Positions 19,752-57,259 of a stretch of 64,000 nucleotides of DNA are shown here, piece after piece. Under the pieces are notes generated by a model. The model was not told the origin of the DNA and made no database searches. It saw nothing but the letters and a program-made list of their open reading frames with translations. The translations under genes and the position numbers were made by a program. This stretch comes from Candidatus Anderseniibacteriota bacterium. GTDB lineage: Bacteria > Patescibacteriota > Andersenbacteria > UBA10190. The stretch is taken from the NCBI GenBank assembly GCA_016197005.1, contig JACPWO010000001.1, positions 87,266-151,265 on the forward strand. The letters are read 5' to 3'. Positions within the stretch are counted from its first letter, which is position 1. Each line of letters opens with the position of its first letter.

Positions 19752-20441
19752 ATGCGTTACGATATTACAGAAACGCGGCGTGTGCCGCTGGATCAACCTT
19801 TCGATTTTGAGGAAGACGCTAATTGGCGTGTCTTCCGGATCATGGCGGAATTTGTTGATGGCTTCGAGTTTCTCTATCCACTTCGTCGGGAAGTAACATT
19901 TTTTGGTTCGGCTCGTTTTCCTGAACATCACAAGTGGTATAAAGAAGCGCGTATTCTCGGCCGCATGCTCGCTGAGCACGGCTTCACCGTTATTACTGGT
20001 GGAGGCCCAGGGATTATGGAGGCAGGTAATAGGGGAGCGTATGAAGGTGGAGGACATTCCATTGGACTAGATATTGAATTACCCAATGAACAGCGTCGGA
20101 ATGCGTACGTAAAAAAAGGTATTGGCTTCCACTATTTTTTTATTCGCAAAGTAATGTTATCCGCGTCTGCTCAAGTGTATGTGTTTTTCCCCGGTGGATA
20201 CGGAACACTTGATGAGTTTTTTGAAATGATTACGCTCATTCAAACTAAAAAGATGGAGCCAGTACCAGTGGTGTGTGTTGGTAAAGAATACTGGGGTAAA
20301 TTAGATGCCTGGGTAAAAGAAGATTTAGTAGAAGCGTACGAGACGATTAATCCGGAGGATGTTTCACTGTATAAAATTGTGGATACGGCTGAGGAAGCCT
20401 TCGCGATTATTAAAGACTCCAAGGAACGAAAATACTTCTAA
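19752..20441 (+). CDS. LOG-family (TIGR00730) nucleotide 5'-monophosphate nucleosidase
   Basis: TFFGSARF...ITGGGPGIMEAGNRGA and the PGGYGTLDE motifs of the LOG/YgdH family. Confidence 0.8.
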   Translation: MRYDITETRRVPLDQPFDFEEDANWRVFRIMAEFVDGFEFLYPLRREVTFFGSARFPEHHKWYKEARILGRMLAEHGFTVITGGGPGIMEAGNRGAYEGGGHSIGLDIELPNEQRRNAYVKKGIGFHYFFIRKVMLSASAQVYVFFPGGYGTLDEFFEMITLIQTKKMEPVPVVCVGKEYWGKLDAWVKEDLVEAYETINPEDVSLYKIVDTAEEAFAIIKDSKERKYF

Positions 20442-27967: not shown

Positions 27968-28369
27968 ATGACTGATGCAAAGAAAGATCGTCCATATGGT
28001 TTAGGTCGTCGCAAAGAAGCGGTGGCTCAGGTGCAACTTTCAACTACACCAAAAGAACGTACGGTAAACGGAATTGCTTTTACAACATATTTTCCAACCG
28101 AGGCGATGCAGAATGCTGTCATTCGTCCTCTTAAGACTACTTCTCAAGATGATGTGTTCGGTTTTGGACTTCGTATATATGGCGGGGGAAAGAATAGCCA
28201 GGCAGATGCTGCATCACTTGCAATTGCTCGCGCTATCCTGACTTCAGACGAGGGTTATCGGAAGGCGCTACGAGCGGCTGGATTGCTTACCCGCGATCCA
28301 CGAGCGAAAGAGCGTAAAAAGCCAGGTCTTAAACGTGCCCGTCGCGCTCCTCAGTTCAGCAAGCGGTAA
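27968..28369 (+). CDS. rpsI: 30S ribosomal protein S9
   Basis: S9 C-terminal block GGGKNSQADAASLAIARA...KRARRAPQFSKR. Confidence 0.9.
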   Translation: MTDAKKDRPYGLGRRKEAVAQVQLSTTPKERTVNGIAFTTYFPTEAMQNAVIRPLKTTSQDDVFGFGLRIYGGGKNSQADAASLAIARAILTSDEGYRKALRAAGLLTRDPRAKERKKPGLKRARRAPQFSKR

Positions 28370-28385
28370 CCTATTTTAAGAAGTC

Positions 28386-28410
28386 CACTCCCCGGGGTGG
28401 ATTTCTTCGA
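28386..28410 (+). terminator. candidate terminator after rpsI
   Basis: TCCACTCCCCGGGGTGGA hairpin followed by TTTCTTCG. The T-tract is weak. Confidence 0.35.
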
Positions 28411-28415
28411 TACCC

Positions 28416-28443
28416 TTGACACAAGATATATTTGTGATAATTT
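28416..28443 (+). promoter_or_regulatory. candidate sigma70 promoter with extended -10 (TTGACA ... TGTGATAAT)
   Basis: TTGACA at 28416-28421 and TGTGATAAT/TAATTT at 28433-28443. The track's TTG start is the -35 hexamer. Confidence 0.45.
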
Positions 28444-28523
28444 GTGGGGTAGGCGAACTTCGATTGTCGGAGTTCTTATGTTCTCTGTCGCCCGGGGCGA
28501 CGATTTTCTGTGAAAGGATTCCA

Positions 28524-28853
28524 ATGCTTGTAATCAAGCGGAACGAAGGTGAACGGTTTTTCATGGATGATCAGATCTTTGTACAGCTTCTCAGGGCCAG
28601 TGAGGCGAGGGTTAAGATTCTGGTCAATGCTCCAAATCTTCGTGTTGTGCGCGGGGAAATACTTGCTGACGAATCCTCGACCACTCCCGTGAAGAAGTCG
28701 GGGAACCTCGTCCTTACGCGAAAACCAGGACAAGTCTTTTGGATCCTCCCTTCGATTCGCATCATGGTAACTGCAGCCAGTGGTGGCTCAGCCAAGTTTG
28801 GCATTGAGGCTCCAAAGGAAATTATGATCTTGCGGGAAGAACTTATGGCTTAG
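28524..28853 (+). CDS. csrA: tandem-fused double CsrA (two carbon-storage-regulator domains in one 109-aa polypeptide)
   Basis: Residues 1-50 (MLVIKRNEGERFFMDDQIFVQLL...VKILVNAPNLRVVRGEIL) and 61-109 (LVLTRKPGQVFWILPSIRIMV...FGIEAPKEIMILREEL) each match the CsrA consensus MLxLxR..GE..IGD.I.V.V....G..V+IGI.APK...+.REEI. ATG at 28524 is preceded by AAAGGA. Confidence 0.6.
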   Translation: MLVIKRNEGERFFMDDQIFVQLLRASEARVKILVNAPNLRVVRGEILADESSTTPVKKSGNLVLTRKPGQVFWILPSIRIMVTAASGGSAKFGIEAPKEIMILREELMA

Positions 28854-28888
28854 ACTTAGCCATATTTCTCACTTCCCAAGAAACGTAT

Positions 28889-28928
28889 GCCGCCGAAAGC
28901 TTTCGAGCTTCCCGCGGCTTTTTTATTT
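28889..28928 (+). terminator. rho-independent terminator
   Basis: GCCGC...GCGGC stem enclosing the palindrome CGAAAGCTTTCG, then TTTTTTATTTG. Confidence 0.55.
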
Positions 28929-30266
28929 GTCTTCTTCGAGTAATAAGTCTTTTAAGTACAGGGCCGTATTATCTCCAGTTCGTTTCAGATAAAACATTTC
29001 ACGTCCAGCTTCACCGACAGATGCTCGCGCGTCGCCAGTATTAGTACTGTCGAGAGAATACTGGCGCGGTGCATCTCGCGTATCTATTTCCGAAATAATA
29101 ATCTCGTCATCCGCCTGAAATACAATGTGCATACTACCCGCAAACCATTGCGGGTCACGAATGGGACGGGACAGATGCAAGATCGTATGTAGACTGCGAT
29201 AAGGAAGATACGTCGCTCGCTCATCGGCAGCATTAAACACGGCTAGTTCACTTGGCCCTTTTCGTACGAGTAATACCTGTCCGCTGGGAGAAAATCCAAC
29301 GATCTCACCACTATCGGCTACGGGCAGTACTTCCTGTTGAACAAGAACGAATAAATTACCGTTCGTATTTTGCACCGCCACCAGTCCCGTCGGCGCAGCT
29401 ACTATTCGAGTTATTTCACCGAGCTCTGGAAATGCCTGCTCATGCTGTAGGTCTCCAGTTAATGAATACCACTGCAAGGCGCCATTCTCATTCGATACCA
29501 CAATCTGTCGTCTCGTTAAGGCAAAGAGATTCACTCCTTCTGCAATGTTGGTAAACGCCTTGGTAGCGGTGCTATAGGAACGCAGGCTGCCATTCGTAGT
29601 GAGTGCAAGTAGCCTCCCTGGCAACCTCGGATCCCATACAAAAGAACCAGCGGTTGCTAAGGATGGCAGCGCTTCCCGAGTCAGTCCCAGATCAGCAACA
29701 TGTACGAGTTCGCGATTACCAGTGGTGTATTCAACGATGAGAGCAGTGCTATCTGAAGACCATAATAAATGCTGGGACGTACCTTGAAGCGTCAGTGGAT
29801 CAGCTACACTTTCGCCAGTCTGATCTAAAATATGTAGTCGCTGCTGGCTGTCTGTCGCTGCAATCAGTCGACGACTTGGGGACAAAGAAAAAGCAGTTAT
29901 GTCAGCAGCGATGGAGCGTGCTAACGTATTTTCTGGGAAGAGACGAACTGTTCTTAATTCGACAGCACGAGCTGGCTCAATAGGAATATGTTTTTCCCAC
30001 GGAACATATCCGTCTTTCACTATCCGAACAGCCGTCGTTCCTTCGGGTAAATTAGATACAGCCTCGGGGGATGTGCCAACTTGAGTGCCGTCAATTTCAA
30101 TGACTGCATCTTGTGGAATTGTTTCAATAAGAAGAACACCAACTTGCCGTGGTTGACTTTGTAGCTGGAAACGATAGCCAATAGCGTAAAGAATTATCGC
30201 TGGAGCAGCGAGGGCAAAAAATACGCAAGCGCCAATTAAAAGCAGTCTTCGGATAACCCGATTCAT
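28923..30266 (-). CDS. secreted/membrane-anchored protein with PEGA-like domain and beta-propeller-like repeats
   Basis: N-terminal TM/signal segment, a PEGA-like block (IETIPQDAVIEIDGTQVGTSPEAVSNLPEGTTAVRIVKDGYVPW), then repetitive beta-rich sequence. Confidence 0.45.
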   Translation of the reverse strand: MNRVIRRLLLIGACVFFALAAPAIILYAIGYRFQLQSQPRQVGVLLIETIPQDAVIEIDGTQVGTSPEAVSNLPEGTTAVRIVKDGYVPWEKHIPIEPARAVELRTVRLFPENTLARSIAADITAFSLSPSRRLIAATDSQQRLHILDQTGESVADPLTLQGTSQHLLWSSDSTALIVEYTTGNRELVHVADLGLTREALPSLATAGSFVWDPRLPGRLLALTTNGSLRSYSTATKAFTNIAEGVNLFALTRRQIVVSNENGALQWYSLTGDLQHEQAFPELGEITRIVAAPTGLVAVQNTNGNLFVLVQQEVLPVADSGEIVGFSPSGQVLLVRKGPSELAVFNAADERATYLPYRSLHTILHLSRPIRDPQWFAGSMHIVFQADDEIIISEIDTRDAPRQYSLDSTNTGDARASVGEAGREMFYLKRTGDNTALYLKDLLLEEDK

Positions 30267-34190: not shown

Positions 34191-36827
34191 ATGTCATTTC
34201 TGAGTAAATTAGGTTTTTCTGGCACATCTCGCCATGAAAAGCAAGCGGAGAAATATCGGCCCCGGGTAGCAGAAATTACGGCTCTCGACACCAAAATGGC
34301 TGAGTTGTCCGACGATGCCTTAAAGCAGGTAGTAATGCAGCATAAAGGCAAAAACCGTGAGGAATTAGATATCGTTGTACCGGAAATCTTTGCCGCTGTT
34401 CGTGAGGCATCCAAGCGCACGATCAAAATGCGTCACTTTGATGTGCAGCTCTTAGGCGGCTTAGCTCTCCTCAATAACACCATCTCTGAAATGAAGACAG
34501 GTGAAGGTAAGACGTTAGTTGCTACCCTTCCTATTATTGTGAACGCTCTTACTGGAAAGGGTGCGCATTTAGTTACGGTTAACGACTACCTAGCTCAGCG
34601 CGATGCCGACTGGATGCGACCGGTATATGAATTCTTTGGTTTAACGGTTGGCACGATTCGGGCTGGGCAGTCTTCGGACGAAAAGCGAGCAGCCTACGCC
34701 GCCGACATAACGTATGGCACCAACAATGAATTTGGGTTTGATTACCTCCGTGACAATATGGCCCAGAGCATGGAACAGCTAGTACAACGTGGTCTTCATT
34801 TTGCCCTAGTTGATGAAGTCGACAGCATTTTAATTGATGAAGCGAGAACTCCGCTTATTATTTCCGCTCCCGACACTGAATCTACTGATCTCTACCAACA
34901 ATTTTCCAAGCTCGTGCCGCGTCTCATTGAGAACACGCATTACAATATTGATGAAAAACGACGAGCGGCCACATTAACTGACGAAGGTATTTCTAAAGTA
35001 GAAGAGCTCCTCAGTATCGATAACATCTACGCCGATAAAGGTGTTCGCTTCGTTCATCATTTAGAGCAAGCCCTCCGAGCCCATACGCTATATCACCGAG
35101 ATAAAGATTATGTCGTTCAGGAAGGACAAGTTATTATCGTAGATGAATTCACCGGTCGCCTGATGCCGGGACGACGTTATTCCGAAGGATTGCATCAGGC
35201 GCTAGAAGCGAAAGAAGGAGTCAAAGTACAACAAGAAAGCCGCACCCTTGCCTCTATTACCTTTCAGAACTATTTTCGTCTGTATAAGCACCTAGCTGGA
35301 ATGACTGGAACGGCGGAAACGTCGGCGGAAGAATTTGAGAAGGTATATAACCTTGATGTTGCCATCATCCCGACTAATCAGAACATGGTACGTCAGGATA
35401 AAGCAGATAAGATTTTCATAAGCGAATCAGCGAAATATAAGGCTGTTGTTAAAGAGATAAAAGAGCGCCACCAGAAGCGTCAACCCGTACTGGTCGGTAC
35501 AATCGCCATTGAAAAATCTGAATATCTCTCCGCTCTGCTTCAGAAAGAAGGAGTAAAGCACGAAGTACTCAACGCCAAACAACACGCGCGGGAAGCTGAG
35601 ATTGTGGCCCAAGCTGGTCAGGCTGGTGCCGTCACTATTTCTACTAATATGGCTGGCCGTGGTACTGACATTAAATTGGGTAAGGAAGTTCCTGCTCTAG
35701 GCGGTTTACTTGTACTAGGAACAGAGCGACATGAAGCTCGTCGTATCGATAACCAGCTCCGTGGACGTAGTGGTCGTCAGGGTGACCCAGGGGAATCTCA
35801 ATTTTATGTCAGTATGGATGACGATGTTATGCGTATTTTCGGCGGTCAGCGTATTAAGTCCTTAATGGGTCGCCTGAAAGTACCGGAAGATGAACCAATC
35901 GAAAACAAAATGGTAAGTCGAGCTATTGAAAGTGCCCAGGAGCGGGTAGAAGGACACTACTTTGATATGCGTAAGCAGGTCTTGTCATACGACGACGTAA
36001 TGAACCGACAACGTAATGCCATCTATACTCTTCGTCGTGGTCTCTTAGAACACGGAACGTGGCGAGAACCAACCATAGAAGAAATGTCGACCCATGACCG
36101 TCTCGAGAGTCTACTGACCGAACAAGCAGAGCAACTCGTTACTACCCATACCAGTGAAGGAACACCGGAGGAATGGAATATAAAGGAAATCGCTGAAGTA
36201 GTACAAAGCCTGGTTGGAAAATCTGGAGCAGATATTAAGCAGAAGCTCGAAACAACGCGAACTGCCGGACAGGAGCAAAGTGTCGAGGAAATTCAAGAGT
36301 CGCTTAAGAAAGTAGCCATAGATGAGCTCAAAGAGCGGCTACAGCAAAAACAGACTGAGATGGGTGAAGAAACAATGAAAAAATTGGAGGTAGCCGCGGC
36401 GCTTCGCTCGATTGATACGCTGTGGATGGAACACATCGATACCATGGATTATCTGCGCACCGGTATTGGACTACGTGGGTACGGTCAACGTGACCCTCTA
36501 GTCGAATACCAAAAAGAAGGTCACCGCTTATTTAAACAGTTACTCGATACGATTAAGAGTTCGTTTGTAGAAACCGTCTTTCACGCTGAATTTATCCGTC
36601 AAAGTGCTATTCCTAAAGGACAGGCTATTCATGCATCGACTTCAATGGAAGACGCTTCTCCCACTGATAGTGCAGCTAGCCCACAACGACCAGCCACCGC
36701 TGCTCCGGGCAGTAATACCCTTACCAACCCCAACAAAAACGTTGGAAGAAATGATCCGTGTCCTTGCGGCTCTGGCAAGAAATATAAAAAGTGTGGGCTT
36801 ATAAACGCCCCTGAACATCGGGCTTAA
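34191..36827 (+). CDS. secA: preprotein translocase ATPase SecA
   Basis: DEAD-like motor motifs ([25 protein letters not shown]), the SecA wing/scaffold, and the C-terminal zinc-binding [12 protein letters not shown]. Confidence 0.9.
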
Positions 36828-57111: not shown

Positions 57112-57184
57112 TGGAGGATAGCGGATTCGAACCGCTGACCTTCCGCACGCCAGGCGGACGCTCTCCCAACTGAGCTAATCCCCC
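57112..57184 (-). tRNA. tRNA-Ala (anticodon GGC)
   Basis: Manually folded cloverleaf: acceptor GGGGGAT/ATCCTCC with G3:U70, D-arm GCTC-AGTTGGGA-GAGC, anticodon stem TCCGC/GCGGA with loop CTGGCGT, T-arm AGCGG-TTCGAAT-CCGCT. CCA is not encoded. Confidence 0.85.
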
Positions 57185-57188
57185 GAAG

Positions 57189-57259
57189 TGGACCGCCGGA
57201 GAATTGAACTCCGATCTCCTGATTGCAAGTCAGGTGTCTTCCCATTAGACCAGCAGCCC
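57189..57259 (-). tRNA. tRNA-Ala (anticodon UGC)
   Basis: Acceptor GGGCTGC/GCGGTCC with G3:U70, D-arm GTCT-AATGGGA-AGAC, anticodon stem CCTGA/TCAGG with loop CTTGCAA, T-arm CGGAG-TTCAATT-CTCCG. Lies 4 nt from the first tRNA. Confidence 0.8.

What the first reader, a model, noticed from the sequence alone, without database searches (positions are those of the whole stretch)
28524..28853. Single-chain tandem CsrA: two carbon-storage-regulator domains fused in one 109-aa protein
Both halves independently match the CsrA consensus: MLVIKRNEGE...ILVNAPNLRVVRGEIL and LVLTRKPGQV...FGIEAPKEIMILREEL. Canonical CsrA is a ~60-75 aa chain that works as a domain-swapped homodimer with two RNA-binding surfaces. 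A covalent head-to-tail fusion would give a pseudo-dimer in one chain and would allow the two RNA-binding faces to diverge. The gene has its own extended -10 promoter and a leader carrying GGA motifs at the SD (AAAGGAUUCCAAUG), suggesting autoregulation. It sits after the ribosomal operon and is not next to a fliW partner.
Basis: partly seen in the sequence, partly recalled or inferred. Interest (0 to 1): 0.7.

Follow-up and report, generated by a model that had tools for sequence, protein, structure and literature searches.

The report
Natural single-chain double CsrA protein
This gene from a tiny-genome (CPR) bacterium really does encode two copies of the RNA-binding regulator CsrA joined in one 109-residue chain. 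Related genomes carry one gene or two separate genes at the same spot, so it is a caught-in-the-act example of a two-subunit protein becoming a single chain, but it is not a new kind of system.

Summary
Window 28524-28853 (+) is an intact 109-codon ORF. Each half alone passes Pfam's CsrA threshold (40.2 and 53.4 bits; cut-off 27).

The source is a Candidatus Andersenbacteria MAG. NCBI annotates only 96 aa from M14, which cuts off strand beta1 of the first half.

AlphaFold2 with 40 tandem homologues gives one compact fold (pLDDT 92, pTM 0.83) with a floppy 12-residue linker. An engineered construct of the same design (Re-CsrA, PDB 5Z38) folds like the native dimer and binds RNA.

The architecture is not unique. 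At least 76 of the top 150 50%-identity clusters are two-domain CsrAs, and some have four or more domains. I found no paper describing them.

The main new result concerns origin. In the same slot (rpsI-[csrA]-PEGA-murA), four related genomes carry one csrA (two loci) or two separate adjacent csrA genes (two loci, including the closest relative). The window gene is therefore most likely an in-situ fusion. Both C-terminal helices are gone, and both halves have diverged sharply (26-43% core identity, against 63-84% for flanking genes). The key RNA-binding residues remain in both halves.

Autoregulation through leader GGA motifs is not supported. No fliW lies in the window.

The parts
28378..28407 (+). 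Terminator-type hairpin ending the rplM-rpsI ribosomal operon. The rpsI stop codon is at 28367-28369.
   Evidence: RNA fold of 28370-28415 gives a 13-bp stem, -17.5 kcal/mol, z = -2.9.
28416..28443 (+). Promoter-like site. The -35 hexamer TTGACA is at 28416-28421. The -10 is either TG(t)GATAAT at 28433-28441 (spacer 14) or TG(a)TAATTT at 28435-28443 (spacer 16). Unverified.
   Evidence: Read directly from the sequence. The sigma-70 consensus scan did not report it. CPR promoters are not characterised.
28455..28502 (+). Leader with two hairpins, at 28455-28475 and 28486-28502. The second is GC-rich and is followed by AUUUUCU, so it resembles a terminator. Function unknown.
   Evidence: Terminator-like scan. 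RNA fold of 28445-28545: the overall z-score is only -1.45. The region is not conserved in relatives.
28513..28518 (+). Shine-Dalgarno sequence AAAGGA, 5 nt before the ATG at 28524.
   Evidence: It aligns with the Shine-Dalgarno sequence and start codon of four syntenic csrA genes.
28524..28853 (+). Fused tandem csrA ORF: 109 codons plus TAG.
28524..28667 (+). CsrA half 1 (residues 1-48), with strands beta1-beta5. This is the diverged half. It keeps L2, I4, R6, R43 (the equivalent of E. coli R44) and E45. It has no C-terminal helix.
   Evidence: Pfam 40.2 bits. Strands at 2-7, 11-14, 18-25, 30-35 and 40-43 in the AlphaFold2 model. 32% identity to the single-domain consensus.
28668..28703 (+). 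Flexible linker (residues 49-60, ADESSTTPVKKS). It takes the place of the C-terminal helix of half 1.
   Evidence: Mean pLDDT for the 10-residue blocks 41-50 and 51-60 is 82 and 67, with no regular structure after the short turn at 47-49. In 64 tandem clusters the spacer is never shorter than 10 residues and is rich in Gly, Ala and Ser.
28704..28850 (+). CsrA half 2 (residues 61-109). This is the canonical-looking half. It keeps L62, L64, R66, K67, R104 (the R44 equivalent) and E106. Only 2 residues follow the core, so it has no C-terminal helix.
   Evidence: Pfam 53.4 bits. It aligns to E. coli and Yersinia CsrA residues 2-47. 66% identity to the single-domain consensus.
28889..28928 (+). Intrinsic-terminator-like hairpin (28889-28918) followed by UUUUUUAUUU. 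It lies between the csrA stop codon and the end of the convergent PEGA-domain gene (28923-30266, minus strand).
   Evidence: RNA fold of 28854-28935: -15.3 kcal/mol, z = -1.7.

Best explanation
The gene encodes a natural single-chain CsrA. Two CsrA beta-strand cores (residues 1-48 and 61-109) are joined by a flexible linker of about 12 residues.

**Fold (inferred).** The two cores interleave within one polypeptide to give the same two-sheet sandwich that ordinary CsrA forms as a domain-swapped homodimer.

**Function (inferred).** The protein presents two composite RNA-binding faces:
- beta1 of half 1 with beta4/beta5 of half 2;
- beta1 of half 2 with beta4/beta5 of half 1.

Both faces keep the essential Leu/Ile, Arg6 and Arg44-equivalent residues. 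It therefore most likely binds GGA-containing sites in mRNA leaders and controls translation, as CsrA does. It does so as an obligate 1:1, asymmetric 'heterodimer' that lacks the C-terminal helices through which partners such as FliW or CesT engage canonical CsrA.

**Origin (shown by comparison, direction inferred).** The gene arose by in-frame fusion of two adjacent csrA paralogues in the slot downstream of rpsI. Both helices were then lost and both halves diverged quickly, the first one most.

**Expression.** It appears to be a monocistronic unit with promoter-like site, leader, ORF and terminator.
For: **Two CsrA domains.** Each half is above the Pfam cut-off.

**Key residues.** R6, R43, E45, R66 and R104 are invariant or nearly so in an alignment of 40 tandem proteins. 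67 of 75 tandem clusters keep the R44 equivalent in both halves.

**Fold.**
- AlphaFold2 with 40 tandem sequences gives pLDDT 92.3 and pTM 0.83. The model has two sets of beta1-beta5 strands, and the only low-confidence stretch is the linker region (blocks 41-60, mean pLDDT 82 and 67).

**Experimental precedent.** Re-CsrA is CsrA(1-44)-GGGGSGGGGS-CsrA(1-61). [quoted passage not shown] In natural tandems the spacer is never under 10 residues.

**Origin.**
- Syntenic loci L062 and L061 hold one csrA. L060 and L059 hold two separate csrA genes.
- L059 is the closest relative: RplM 84%, RpsI 83% and PEGA 63% identical to the window.
- The window halves are only 26-43% identical to those CsrAs. The CsrAs of the relatives are 53-81% identical to each other.

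**Transcription unit.**
Against: - No biochemical data exist for this protein or for any natural tandem CsrA.
- AlphaFold2 run on a single chain cannot distinguish intramolecular pairing from pairing between chains. Its alignment consisted only of tandem proteins.
- The linker is not resolved in the Re-CsrA crystal.
- Half 1 is strongly diverged: 32% identity to the consensus, Asn at position 7, Leu at the usually conserved Gly33. One or both faces may bind weakly or differently.
- The protein misses NCBI's equivalog cut-offs for CsrA (67.5 vs 73 bits; 60.9 vs 70.1).
- Helix loss may reduce RNA affinity, because the helix contributes to ligand binding in canonical CsrA (PMC5864733).
- In-situ fusion is the parsimonious reading but is not proven. 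The halves are too diverged to assign each to a paralogue type.
Confidence: 0.72

Rival explanations
1. Artefact: two ordinary adjacent csrA genes, as in the closest relatives, have been merged by an assembly or sequencing frameshift.
For: The closest relatives L059 and L060 do have two separate adjacent csrA genes. In L059 they overlap by 40 nt in different frames; in L060 the stop and start codons overlap by 1 nt. A single indel could therefore join them.
Against: - The second half has no ATG and no Shine-Dalgarno sequence.
- The first half has lost the helix segment (HRQEVYEAIQRE) that every separate copy keeps.
- Both halves are deeply diverged from the split copies, which one indel cannot produce.
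- The identical product is recorded on two large contigs.
- 75 other clusters have the same architecture.
Confidence: 0.03
2. Degenerating or scaffold-only fusion: after the fusion the gene came under relaxed constraint. Half 1 now serves only as a structural partner, or the whole protein has lost RNA regulation.
For: - Core identity to syntenic CsrAs is only 26-43%, while flanking genes are 63-84% identical.
- Half 1 is 32% identical to the consensus.
- Both C-terminal helices are lost.
- A Neobacillus cucumis tandem protein has a first half that lacks the R44 equivalent. Degenerate first halves therefore do occur.
Against: - An ORF drifting neutrally to about 30% identity would be expected to have acquired stop codons or frameshifts. 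This one is intact and has a Shine-Dalgarno sequence and a terminator.
- L2, I4, R6, R43 and E45 are all retained in half 1.
- Both halves still pass the Pfam cut-off.
- The AlphaFold2 model is confident.
Confidence: 0.12
3. Inter-chain assembly: half 1 of one chain pairs with half 2 of another, giving swapped dimers or open-ended oligomers rather than a monomeric pseudo-dimer.
For: CsrA pairing is by strand interleaving, which a tandem chain could satisfy within one chain or between chains. The linker is not visible in the 5Z38 electron density. Proteins with 4 or 6 CsrA domains exist.
Against: - The linker is at least 10 residues in all 64 measured clusters, which is long enough to close the fold within one chain.
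- Re-CsrA behaves as a unit of about 12.5 kDa, two of which bind one CesT dimer.
- Domain counts are predominantly even: 76 clusters with two domains, 3 with four, 1 with six and 1 with three. This fits self-contained pairs.
Confidence: 0.1
4. Replacement rather than in-situ fusion: a tandem csrA acquired from elsewhere displaced the resident csrA gene or genes downstream of rpsI.
For: The window protein is about as similar to distant tandem proteins (P0004, 42% over the full length) as to its syntenic neighbours. Tandem CsrAs also occur in phage-like or mobile contexts.
Against: The insertion point, the flanks and the orientation are exactly those of the resident genes. The closest relative already holds the two-gene precursor state. 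No mobile-element genes are adjacent.
Confidence: 0.15

Closest known systems
Canonical CsrA/RsmA/RsmE (Pfam PF02599; PDB 1Y00, 2BTI, 1VPZ, 2JPP)
   Same: Both halves share the five-strand core. The residues corresponding to L2, L4, R6, R44 and E46 are conserved. The expected function is binding of GGA-containing RNA and control of translation.
   Different: - It is one chain with two non-identical cores (28% identical to each other) instead of a homodimer of chains of about 61 aa.
- Both C-terminal helices are missing.
- It falls below NCBIfam's equivalog cut-offs.
- No FliW gene and no Csr/Rsm sRNA family is detectable in the window.
Engineered single-chain Re-CsrA (E. coli CsrA 1-44 + GGGGSGGGGS + CsrA 1-61; PDB 5Z38; PMC5864733)
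   Same: The design is the same: a first core without its helix, then a Gly/Ser-type linker of about 10 residues or more, then a second core. The engineered protein folds like the native swapped dimer and binds RNA.
   Different: Re-CsrA is artificial, its two halves are identical in sequence, and the second half keeps its helix. The window protein is natural, its halves are strongly diverged, and neither half has a helix.
Other natural tandem CsrA proteins in metagenomes, MAGs and phages (annotated only as 'carbon storage regulator')
   Same: They have two PF02599 domains and lengths of about 100-180 aa. Linkers are rich in Gly, Ala and Ser, and R44 is kept in both halves in 67 of 75 clusters.

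Examples:
- Candidatus Harrisonbacteria (P0012)
- Gracilibacteraceae (P0158)
- Neobacillus cucumis (L048)
- an uncultured Caudovirales protein, A0A6J5RUQ1
   Different: The nearest is only 42% identical. Contexts differ: some follow fliW in flagellar clusters, and some sit among phage-like genes. Within-protein identity between halves (median 44%) exceeds identity of the same half across proteins (37-41%), which points to repeated independent duplications. This window's halves are among the most diverged from each other (28%; the range is 26-87%).
RsmN/RsmF (PDB 4KJI, 4K59)
   Same: They are members of the CsrA superfamily with an altered architecture that still forms a dimeric beta-sandwich able to bind RNA.
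   Different: RsmN and RsmF rearrange the order of secondary-structure elements within a subunit and remain homodimers. Here the strand order is canonical in both halves, and the change is a covalent duplication. The sequence matches only residues 77-108 of the window protein.

Membership tests
CsrA/RsmA family (Pfam PF02599) | Profile match above the curated gathering score | tested here: met
   The whole protein scores 89.3 bits. The halves alone score 40.2 and 53.4 bits against a cut-off of 27.
CsrA/RsmA family (Pfam PF02599) | Five-strand beta core (beta1-beta5) per subunit | tested here: met
   The AlphaFold2 model has strands at 2-7, 11-14, 18-25, 30-35 and 40-43, and again at 61-66, 71-75, 78-86, 89-95 and 102-104. 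One half lies 0.8 A from chain 2bti_B over 47 residues. This is a prediction, not an experiment.
CsrA/RsmA family (Pfam PF02599) | RNA-binding residues in beta1 (L2, L4, R6) and beta5 (R44, E46) | tested here: met
   Half 1 has L2, I4, R6, R43 and E45. Half 2 has L62, L64, R66, R104 and E106. Position 7 is Asn in half 1 and Lys in half 2.
CsrA/RsmA family (Pfam PF02599) | Interleaved two-subunit beta-sandwich (domain-swapped dimer) | tested here: inconclusive
   The model is predicted to form the sandwich within one chain (pTM 0.83). Whole-model matches to single-domain beta-sandwiches were found. The engineered precedent is 5Z38. I could not inspect model coordinates, and there are no solution data.
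CsrA/RsmA family (Pfam PF02599) | C-terminal alpha-helix after beta5 (E45-Y61 in E. coli) | tested here: not met
   Only 3-residue helical turns appear at 47-49 and 105-107. Half 2 ends 2 residues after the core, and half 1 runs straight into the linker. The separate csrA genes in syntenic relatives keep the helix.
CsrA/RsmA family (Pfam PF02599) | Binding of GGA motifs in RNA and translational regulation | not testable with these tools
   This needs EMSA, SELEX or in vivo reporters.
CsrA equivalog (NCBIfam NF002469 / TIGR00202) | Score above the curated equivalog cut-off | tested here: not met
   67.5 bits against a cut-off of 73, and 60.9 against 70.1. The protein is a CsrA-family member, but it cannot be asserted to be an equivalog of E. 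coli CsrA.
FliW-CsrA partner-switch module | fliW adjacent to csrA, a flagellar context, and a C-terminal extension that FliW binds | tested here: not met
   A FliW HMM built from 15 csrA-adjacent FliW proteins finds nothing in the 64-kb window (best E = 2). The neighbours are ribosomal, PEGA and murA genes. There is no C-terminal extension. The rest of the genome could not be searched.
Csr/Rsm sRNA-antagonised system | Presence of decoy sRNAs of the CsrB/RsmY/RsmZ type with multiple GGA motifs | tested here: inconclusive
   Rfam at gathering thresholds finds only two tRNAs in the window. GGA-dense windows exist but were not examined. Only 64 kb of the genome is available.
Single-chain (tandem) CsrA architecture | Two PF02599 cores in one ORF, joined by a flexible linker of at least 10 residues, with the first core lacking its helix | tested here: met
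   The spacer is 15 residues, counted from profile position 47 of half 1 to position 2 of half 2. The family minimum is 10 and the median is 18. 76 two-domain clusters were found.

The most novel reading that the evidence does not exclude
Two adjacent csrA paralogues that already worked as a heterodimer became fused, which fixed their 1:1 stoichiometry. The fusion removed the constraint that each subunit must pair with itself. It also removed the partner-binding helices. The two composite RNA-binding faces were then free to evolve different specificities. The result would be a single-chain, asymmetric, bipartite RNA reader in a minimal-genome CPR bacterium that has neither FliW nor known decoy sRNAs. 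The proteins with 4 and 6 CsrA domains seen elsewhere would be polyvalent versions of the same idea.
Probability: 0.2. Interest if true: 0.7.

Novelty: new variant of a known kind. Interest (0 to 1): 0.5.

Why it matters
CsrA is one of the best-studied bacterial post-transcriptional regulators. All mechanistic work assumes a symmetric homodimer with two identical RNA-binding sites that bridge paired GGA motifs.

A natural single-chain form shows that evolution has repeatedly made the 'linked dimer' that structural biologists built by hand. It offers proteins whose two faces can be mutated and studied independently.

The Andersenbacteria series (one gene, two adjacent genes, one fused gene, all in the same slot) is an unusually clean record of how a homodimer becomes a pseudo-dimeric single chain. 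It also shows what changes afterwards: loss of the helices and accelerated divergence.

There is a practical point too. Public annotation truncates this gene and names all such proteins plain 'carbon storage regulator', so the architecture is invisible in surveys that trim to one Pfam hit per protein.

Tried and rejected
**Searches for close relatives**
- The word-index protein search with the protein found only itself.
- The genome-contig scan with the single protein found no relative.
- A five-sequence alignment worked, but it returned almost only single-domain CsrAs. The exception was a Neobacillus tandem protein.
- The metagenome-contig scan returned one single-domain CsrA.
- There is therefore no close relative (above 42% identity) with which to test leader conservation or dN/dS.

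**Other resources**
- The afdb50 fold library was unavailable.
- tblastn against phage and plasmid records gave only single-domain CsrAs.

**Negative results in the window**
- No second csrA.
- No fliW.
- No Rfam Csr/Rsm sRNA.
- No GGA enrichment in the leader.

**Other rejected leads**
- The intergenic DNA does not align among syntenic relatives, so the promoter and hairpins cannot be validated by comparison.
- P0030 (1096 aa, '8 stretches') is a false positive made of Ig/PKD repeats.
- There is no sign of a single ancient duplication with orthologous first and second halves. Within-protein identity between halves exceeds identity of the same half across proteins, so multiple origins are more likely.

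**Literature**
None turned up a description of natural tandem CsrA.
- The library covers open-access text only.

Full report
**1. What is in the sequence**

Window 28524-28853 (+) is an uninterrupted ORF of 109 codons. Its product is MLVIKRNEGERFFMDDQIFVQLLRASEARVKILVNAPNLRVVRGEILADESSTTPVKKSGNLVLTRKPGQVFWILPSIRIMVTAASGGSAKFGIEAPKEIMILREELMA.

- Pfam's CsrA model (PF02599) scores 89.3 bits with two stretches.
- Scanned separately, residues 1-59 score 40.2 bits and residues 60-109 score 53.4 bits. The gathering score is 27.
- NCBIfam's CsrA equivalog models hit both halves but stay below their cut-offs (67.5 vs 73; 60.9 vs 70.1).
- PDB sequence matches are all single-domain CsrA, RsmA, RsmE or RsmN chains, and they align to the second half. 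No solved structure of a natural tandem exists.
- No other CsrA-like ORF lies in the 64-kb window.

**2. Source, annotation and transcription unit**

The identical product is recorded for a Candidatus Andersenbacteria MAG (GCA_016178385.1, contig JACOTL010000006.1), a member of the Candidate Phyla Radiation. It is found on two contigs of 0.2-1 Mb.

NCBI's protein has 96 aa and begins at M14. That start removes strand beta1 (MLVIKR) of the first half. The upstream ATG at 28524 is the better start for three reasons:
- It adds 22 bits to the CsrA match of half 1 (43 vs 21 bits).
- AAAGGA lies 5 nt upstream.
- SD + ATG-CTN-GTN aligns with the csrA starts of four syntenic relatives.

The gene order is rpsM-rpsK-rpsD-rpoA-rplQ-rplM-rpsI, then csrA, then a convergent PEGA-domain gene, then murA and mreB.

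Features of the transcription unit:
- A strong hairpin (28378-28407) follows rpsI.
- A perfect TTGACA is followed by TGn-GATAAT (spacer 14) or TGn-TAATTT (spacer 16). The consensus scan did not call this site.
- The leader has two hairpins. The second resembles a terminator.
- A hairpin plus a U-run follows the stop codon.

A separate monocistronic unit is therefore plausible but unproven.

**3. Fold**

AlphaFold2 on the single sequence gave one usable model out of five (pLDDT 72). With an alignment of 40 tandem homologues, all five models agreed:
- The best model has pLDDT 92.3 and pTM 0.83.
- It shows the beta1-beta5 pattern twice.
- Confidence is lowest across the linker region (blocks 41-50 and 51-60, mean pLDDT 82 and 67).
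- The only helices are 3-residue turns.

Structure comparisons:
- Foldseek superposes one half on Yersinia CsrA chain 2bti_B at 0.8 A over 47 residues.
- Phage single-chain proteins of 81-114 aa match the whole model at TM 0.6-0.72. One is named 'Carbon storage regulator'.

The halves are therefore predicted to interleave into one globule.

Caveat: a monomer prediction cannot exclude pairing between chains, and I could not inspect the model coordinates.

**4. Experimental precedent**

Ye et al. 2018 (PMC5864733) built 'Re-CsrA', which is CsrA(1-44)-GGGGSGGGGS-CsrA(1-61). According to the paper:
- It behaves as a unit of about 12.5 kDa.
- It binds RNA.

The same paper restates that the two RNA sites of the dimer are the beta1'/beta4/beta5 patch and its symmetric beta1/beta4'/beta5' patch. 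Each face is therefore composite.

In the window protein the two faces are:
- L2-V3-I4-K5-R6-N7 with I100...R104-E105-E106-L107;
- L62-V63-L64-T65-R66-K67 with L39...R43-G44-E45-I46.

All positions known to be critical (2, 4, 6, 44) are retained on both faces. Divergence of one half alters both faces, in different ways.

**5. How common the architecture is**

An exhaustive HMMER search of 1.84 billion cluster representatives gave 224 hits. Of the best 150:
- 76 have two CsrA domains.
- Three have four domains.
- One protein of 3946 aa has four to six domains.

The nearest tandem protein is only 42% identical.

Named examples and contexts:
- Candidatus Harrisonbacteria, another CPR lineage.
- Gracilibacteraceae, where the gene directly follows fliW in a flagellar cluster.
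- Neobacillus cucumis WH12, where the gene lies between rod genes and flagellin and its first half lacks R44.
- Others sit in phage-like or hypothetical-gene contexts.
- Two distant tandem proteins (P0013 and P0040, 37% identical) share the synteny gatCA-yidC-deoC-csrA2x-cysS. The architecture therefore persists over deep divergence.

Measurements across tandem clusters:
- Linkers are at least 10 residues (median 18) and rich in Gly, Ala and Ser.
- Identity between the two halves of one protein (median 44%) exceeds identity of the same half across proteins (37-41%). This indicates repeated independent duplications.
- First halves are slightly but significantly more diverged than second halves (45.6% vs 48.9% identity to the consensus, p = 0.002). 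In the window protein the contrast is extreme (32% vs 66%). The consensus is biased towards sequences resembling the window's second half.

I found no paper describing natural tandem CsrA.

**6. Origin of this gene**

I used the window's RpsI protein to find relatives and read their loci. The slot between rpsI and the PEGA and murA genes (a beta-propeller gene in L062) holds:

| Locus | RpsI identity to window | State of the csrA slot |
|---|---|---|
| L062 (Andersenbacteria GCA_040876835.1) | 63% | one csrA, 75 aa |
| L061 | 72% | one csrA |
| L060 | 69-72% | two separate csrA genes (82 and 64 aa); stop and start overlap by 1 nt |
| L059 | 83% (RplM 84%, PEGA 63%) | two separate csrA genes in different frames, overlapping by 40 nt |
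| window | - | one fused ORF, 109 aa |

Every separate copy keeps the helix segment HR(Q/E)E(V/I)Y.AI.R, and these copies are 53-81% identical to each other in the core. The window halves are 26-33% (half 1) and 36-43% (half 2) identical to them.

The most economical reading has three steps:
- tandem gene duplication;
- fusion, for which one indel suffices given the overlapping reading frames;
- loss of both helices and accelerated divergence.

The ORF has stayed intact and kept its key residues, so this divergence looks like altered constraint rather than decay.

Two paralogue types occur, in opposite order in L059 and L060. The slot is therefore dynamic.

**7. Claims not supported**

- Leader GGA motifs: two occur in 76 nt, against about 1.2 expected, and one is the Shine-Dalgarno sequence itself. 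Relatives have ordinary Shine-Dalgarno sequences, and the intergenic DNA does not align. Autoregulation remains pure conjecture.
- No fliW and no Csr/Rsm sRNA family is found in the window. The rest of the genome was not available.

**8. Verdict**

This is a real, correctly spotted two-domain CsrA. It is most likely a monomeric pseudo-dimer that still binds RNA. It was generated by fusion of adjacent paralogues and is now strongly asymmetric.

It belongs to the CsrA family as a structural variant. That variant recurs in metagenomes and phages but appears to be undescribed and is mis-annotated. I score interest as moderate (0.5). It is not a new kind of system, but it offers a clean evolutionary series and a natural tool for separating the two RNA-binding faces of CsrA.

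Noticed in passing
window 28524-28562 (NCBI start at 28563): The public annotation (96 aa, starting at M14) truncates the gene and removes strand beta1 of the first CsrA domain. The upstream ATG at 28524 is supported by profile score, Shine-Dalgarno sequence and comparative alignment.
   Followed up: yes
L059 1063-1556; L060 3458-3900: The closest Andersenbacteria relatives carry two separate adjacent csrA paralogues with overlapping reading frames (40 nt in L059; 1 nt in L060). The two paralogue types are in opposite order in the two genomes. Overlapping frames suggest translational coupling and possibly heterodimers.
   Followed up: partly
P0003 (303 aa), P0006 (275 aa), P0033 (282 aa), P0075 (3946 aa; CsrA repeats at about 670-1060): Some proteins carry four CsrA domains, and one giant protein carries four to six. 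Domain counts are mostly even, which fits pairwise assembly.
   Followed up: partly
L048 4971-5327 (Neobacillus cucumis WH12, CP126111.1): A cultured Bacillota genome has a 118-aa tandem CsrA-like gene between flagellar rod genes and flagellin. Its first half lacks the R44 equivalent.
   Followed up: no
L051 5549-6429 (Gracilibacteraceae MAG): A 142-aa tandem CsrA lies directly downstream of fliW in a flgM-flgN-flgK-flagellin cluster. Some tandem CsrAs therefore sit in the classical FliW context, unlike the window gene.
   Followed up: no
L055/L056 5401-6312: A single-domain csrA (80 aa) lies about 360 nt upstream of a tandem csrA (103 aa) in the same genome. P0040 sits in the same synteny (gatCA-yidC-deoC-csrA2x-cysS-SLH protein) at 37% identity.
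   Followed up: partly
window 28486-28509: A GC-rich hairpin followed by AUUUUCU, resembling a terminator, lies inside the csrA leader just before the Shine-Dalgarno sequence. It could be an attenuator, an RNA-stabilising structure or a chance match.
   Followed up: no
BFVD entries A0A6G5YEX0, A0A6J5RUQ1, A0A6G5YD98 and others: Phage single-chain proteins of 81-114 aa match the whole two-domain model (TM 0.6-0.85) at only 15-24% identity. Most have no name. They may be a phage family of single-chain CsrA-like proteins.
   Followed up: no
L001 1-1158 (about 9 kb upstream of the gene in the source contig): A TraG/TrwB-type coupling-protein-like gene (type IV secretion or DNA transfer) lies upstream of the ribosomal cluster in this CPR genome.
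   Followed up: no
window 57112-57259 (-): Two adjacent tRNA genes are the only Rfam matches in the window.
   Followed up: no
window 36155-36274 (+), 19993-20112 (+): These are the 120-nt windows densest in GGA (9 and 8 motifs, against a mean of 1.9). I did not check whether they are coding or could be CsrA-binding RNAs.
   Followed up: no
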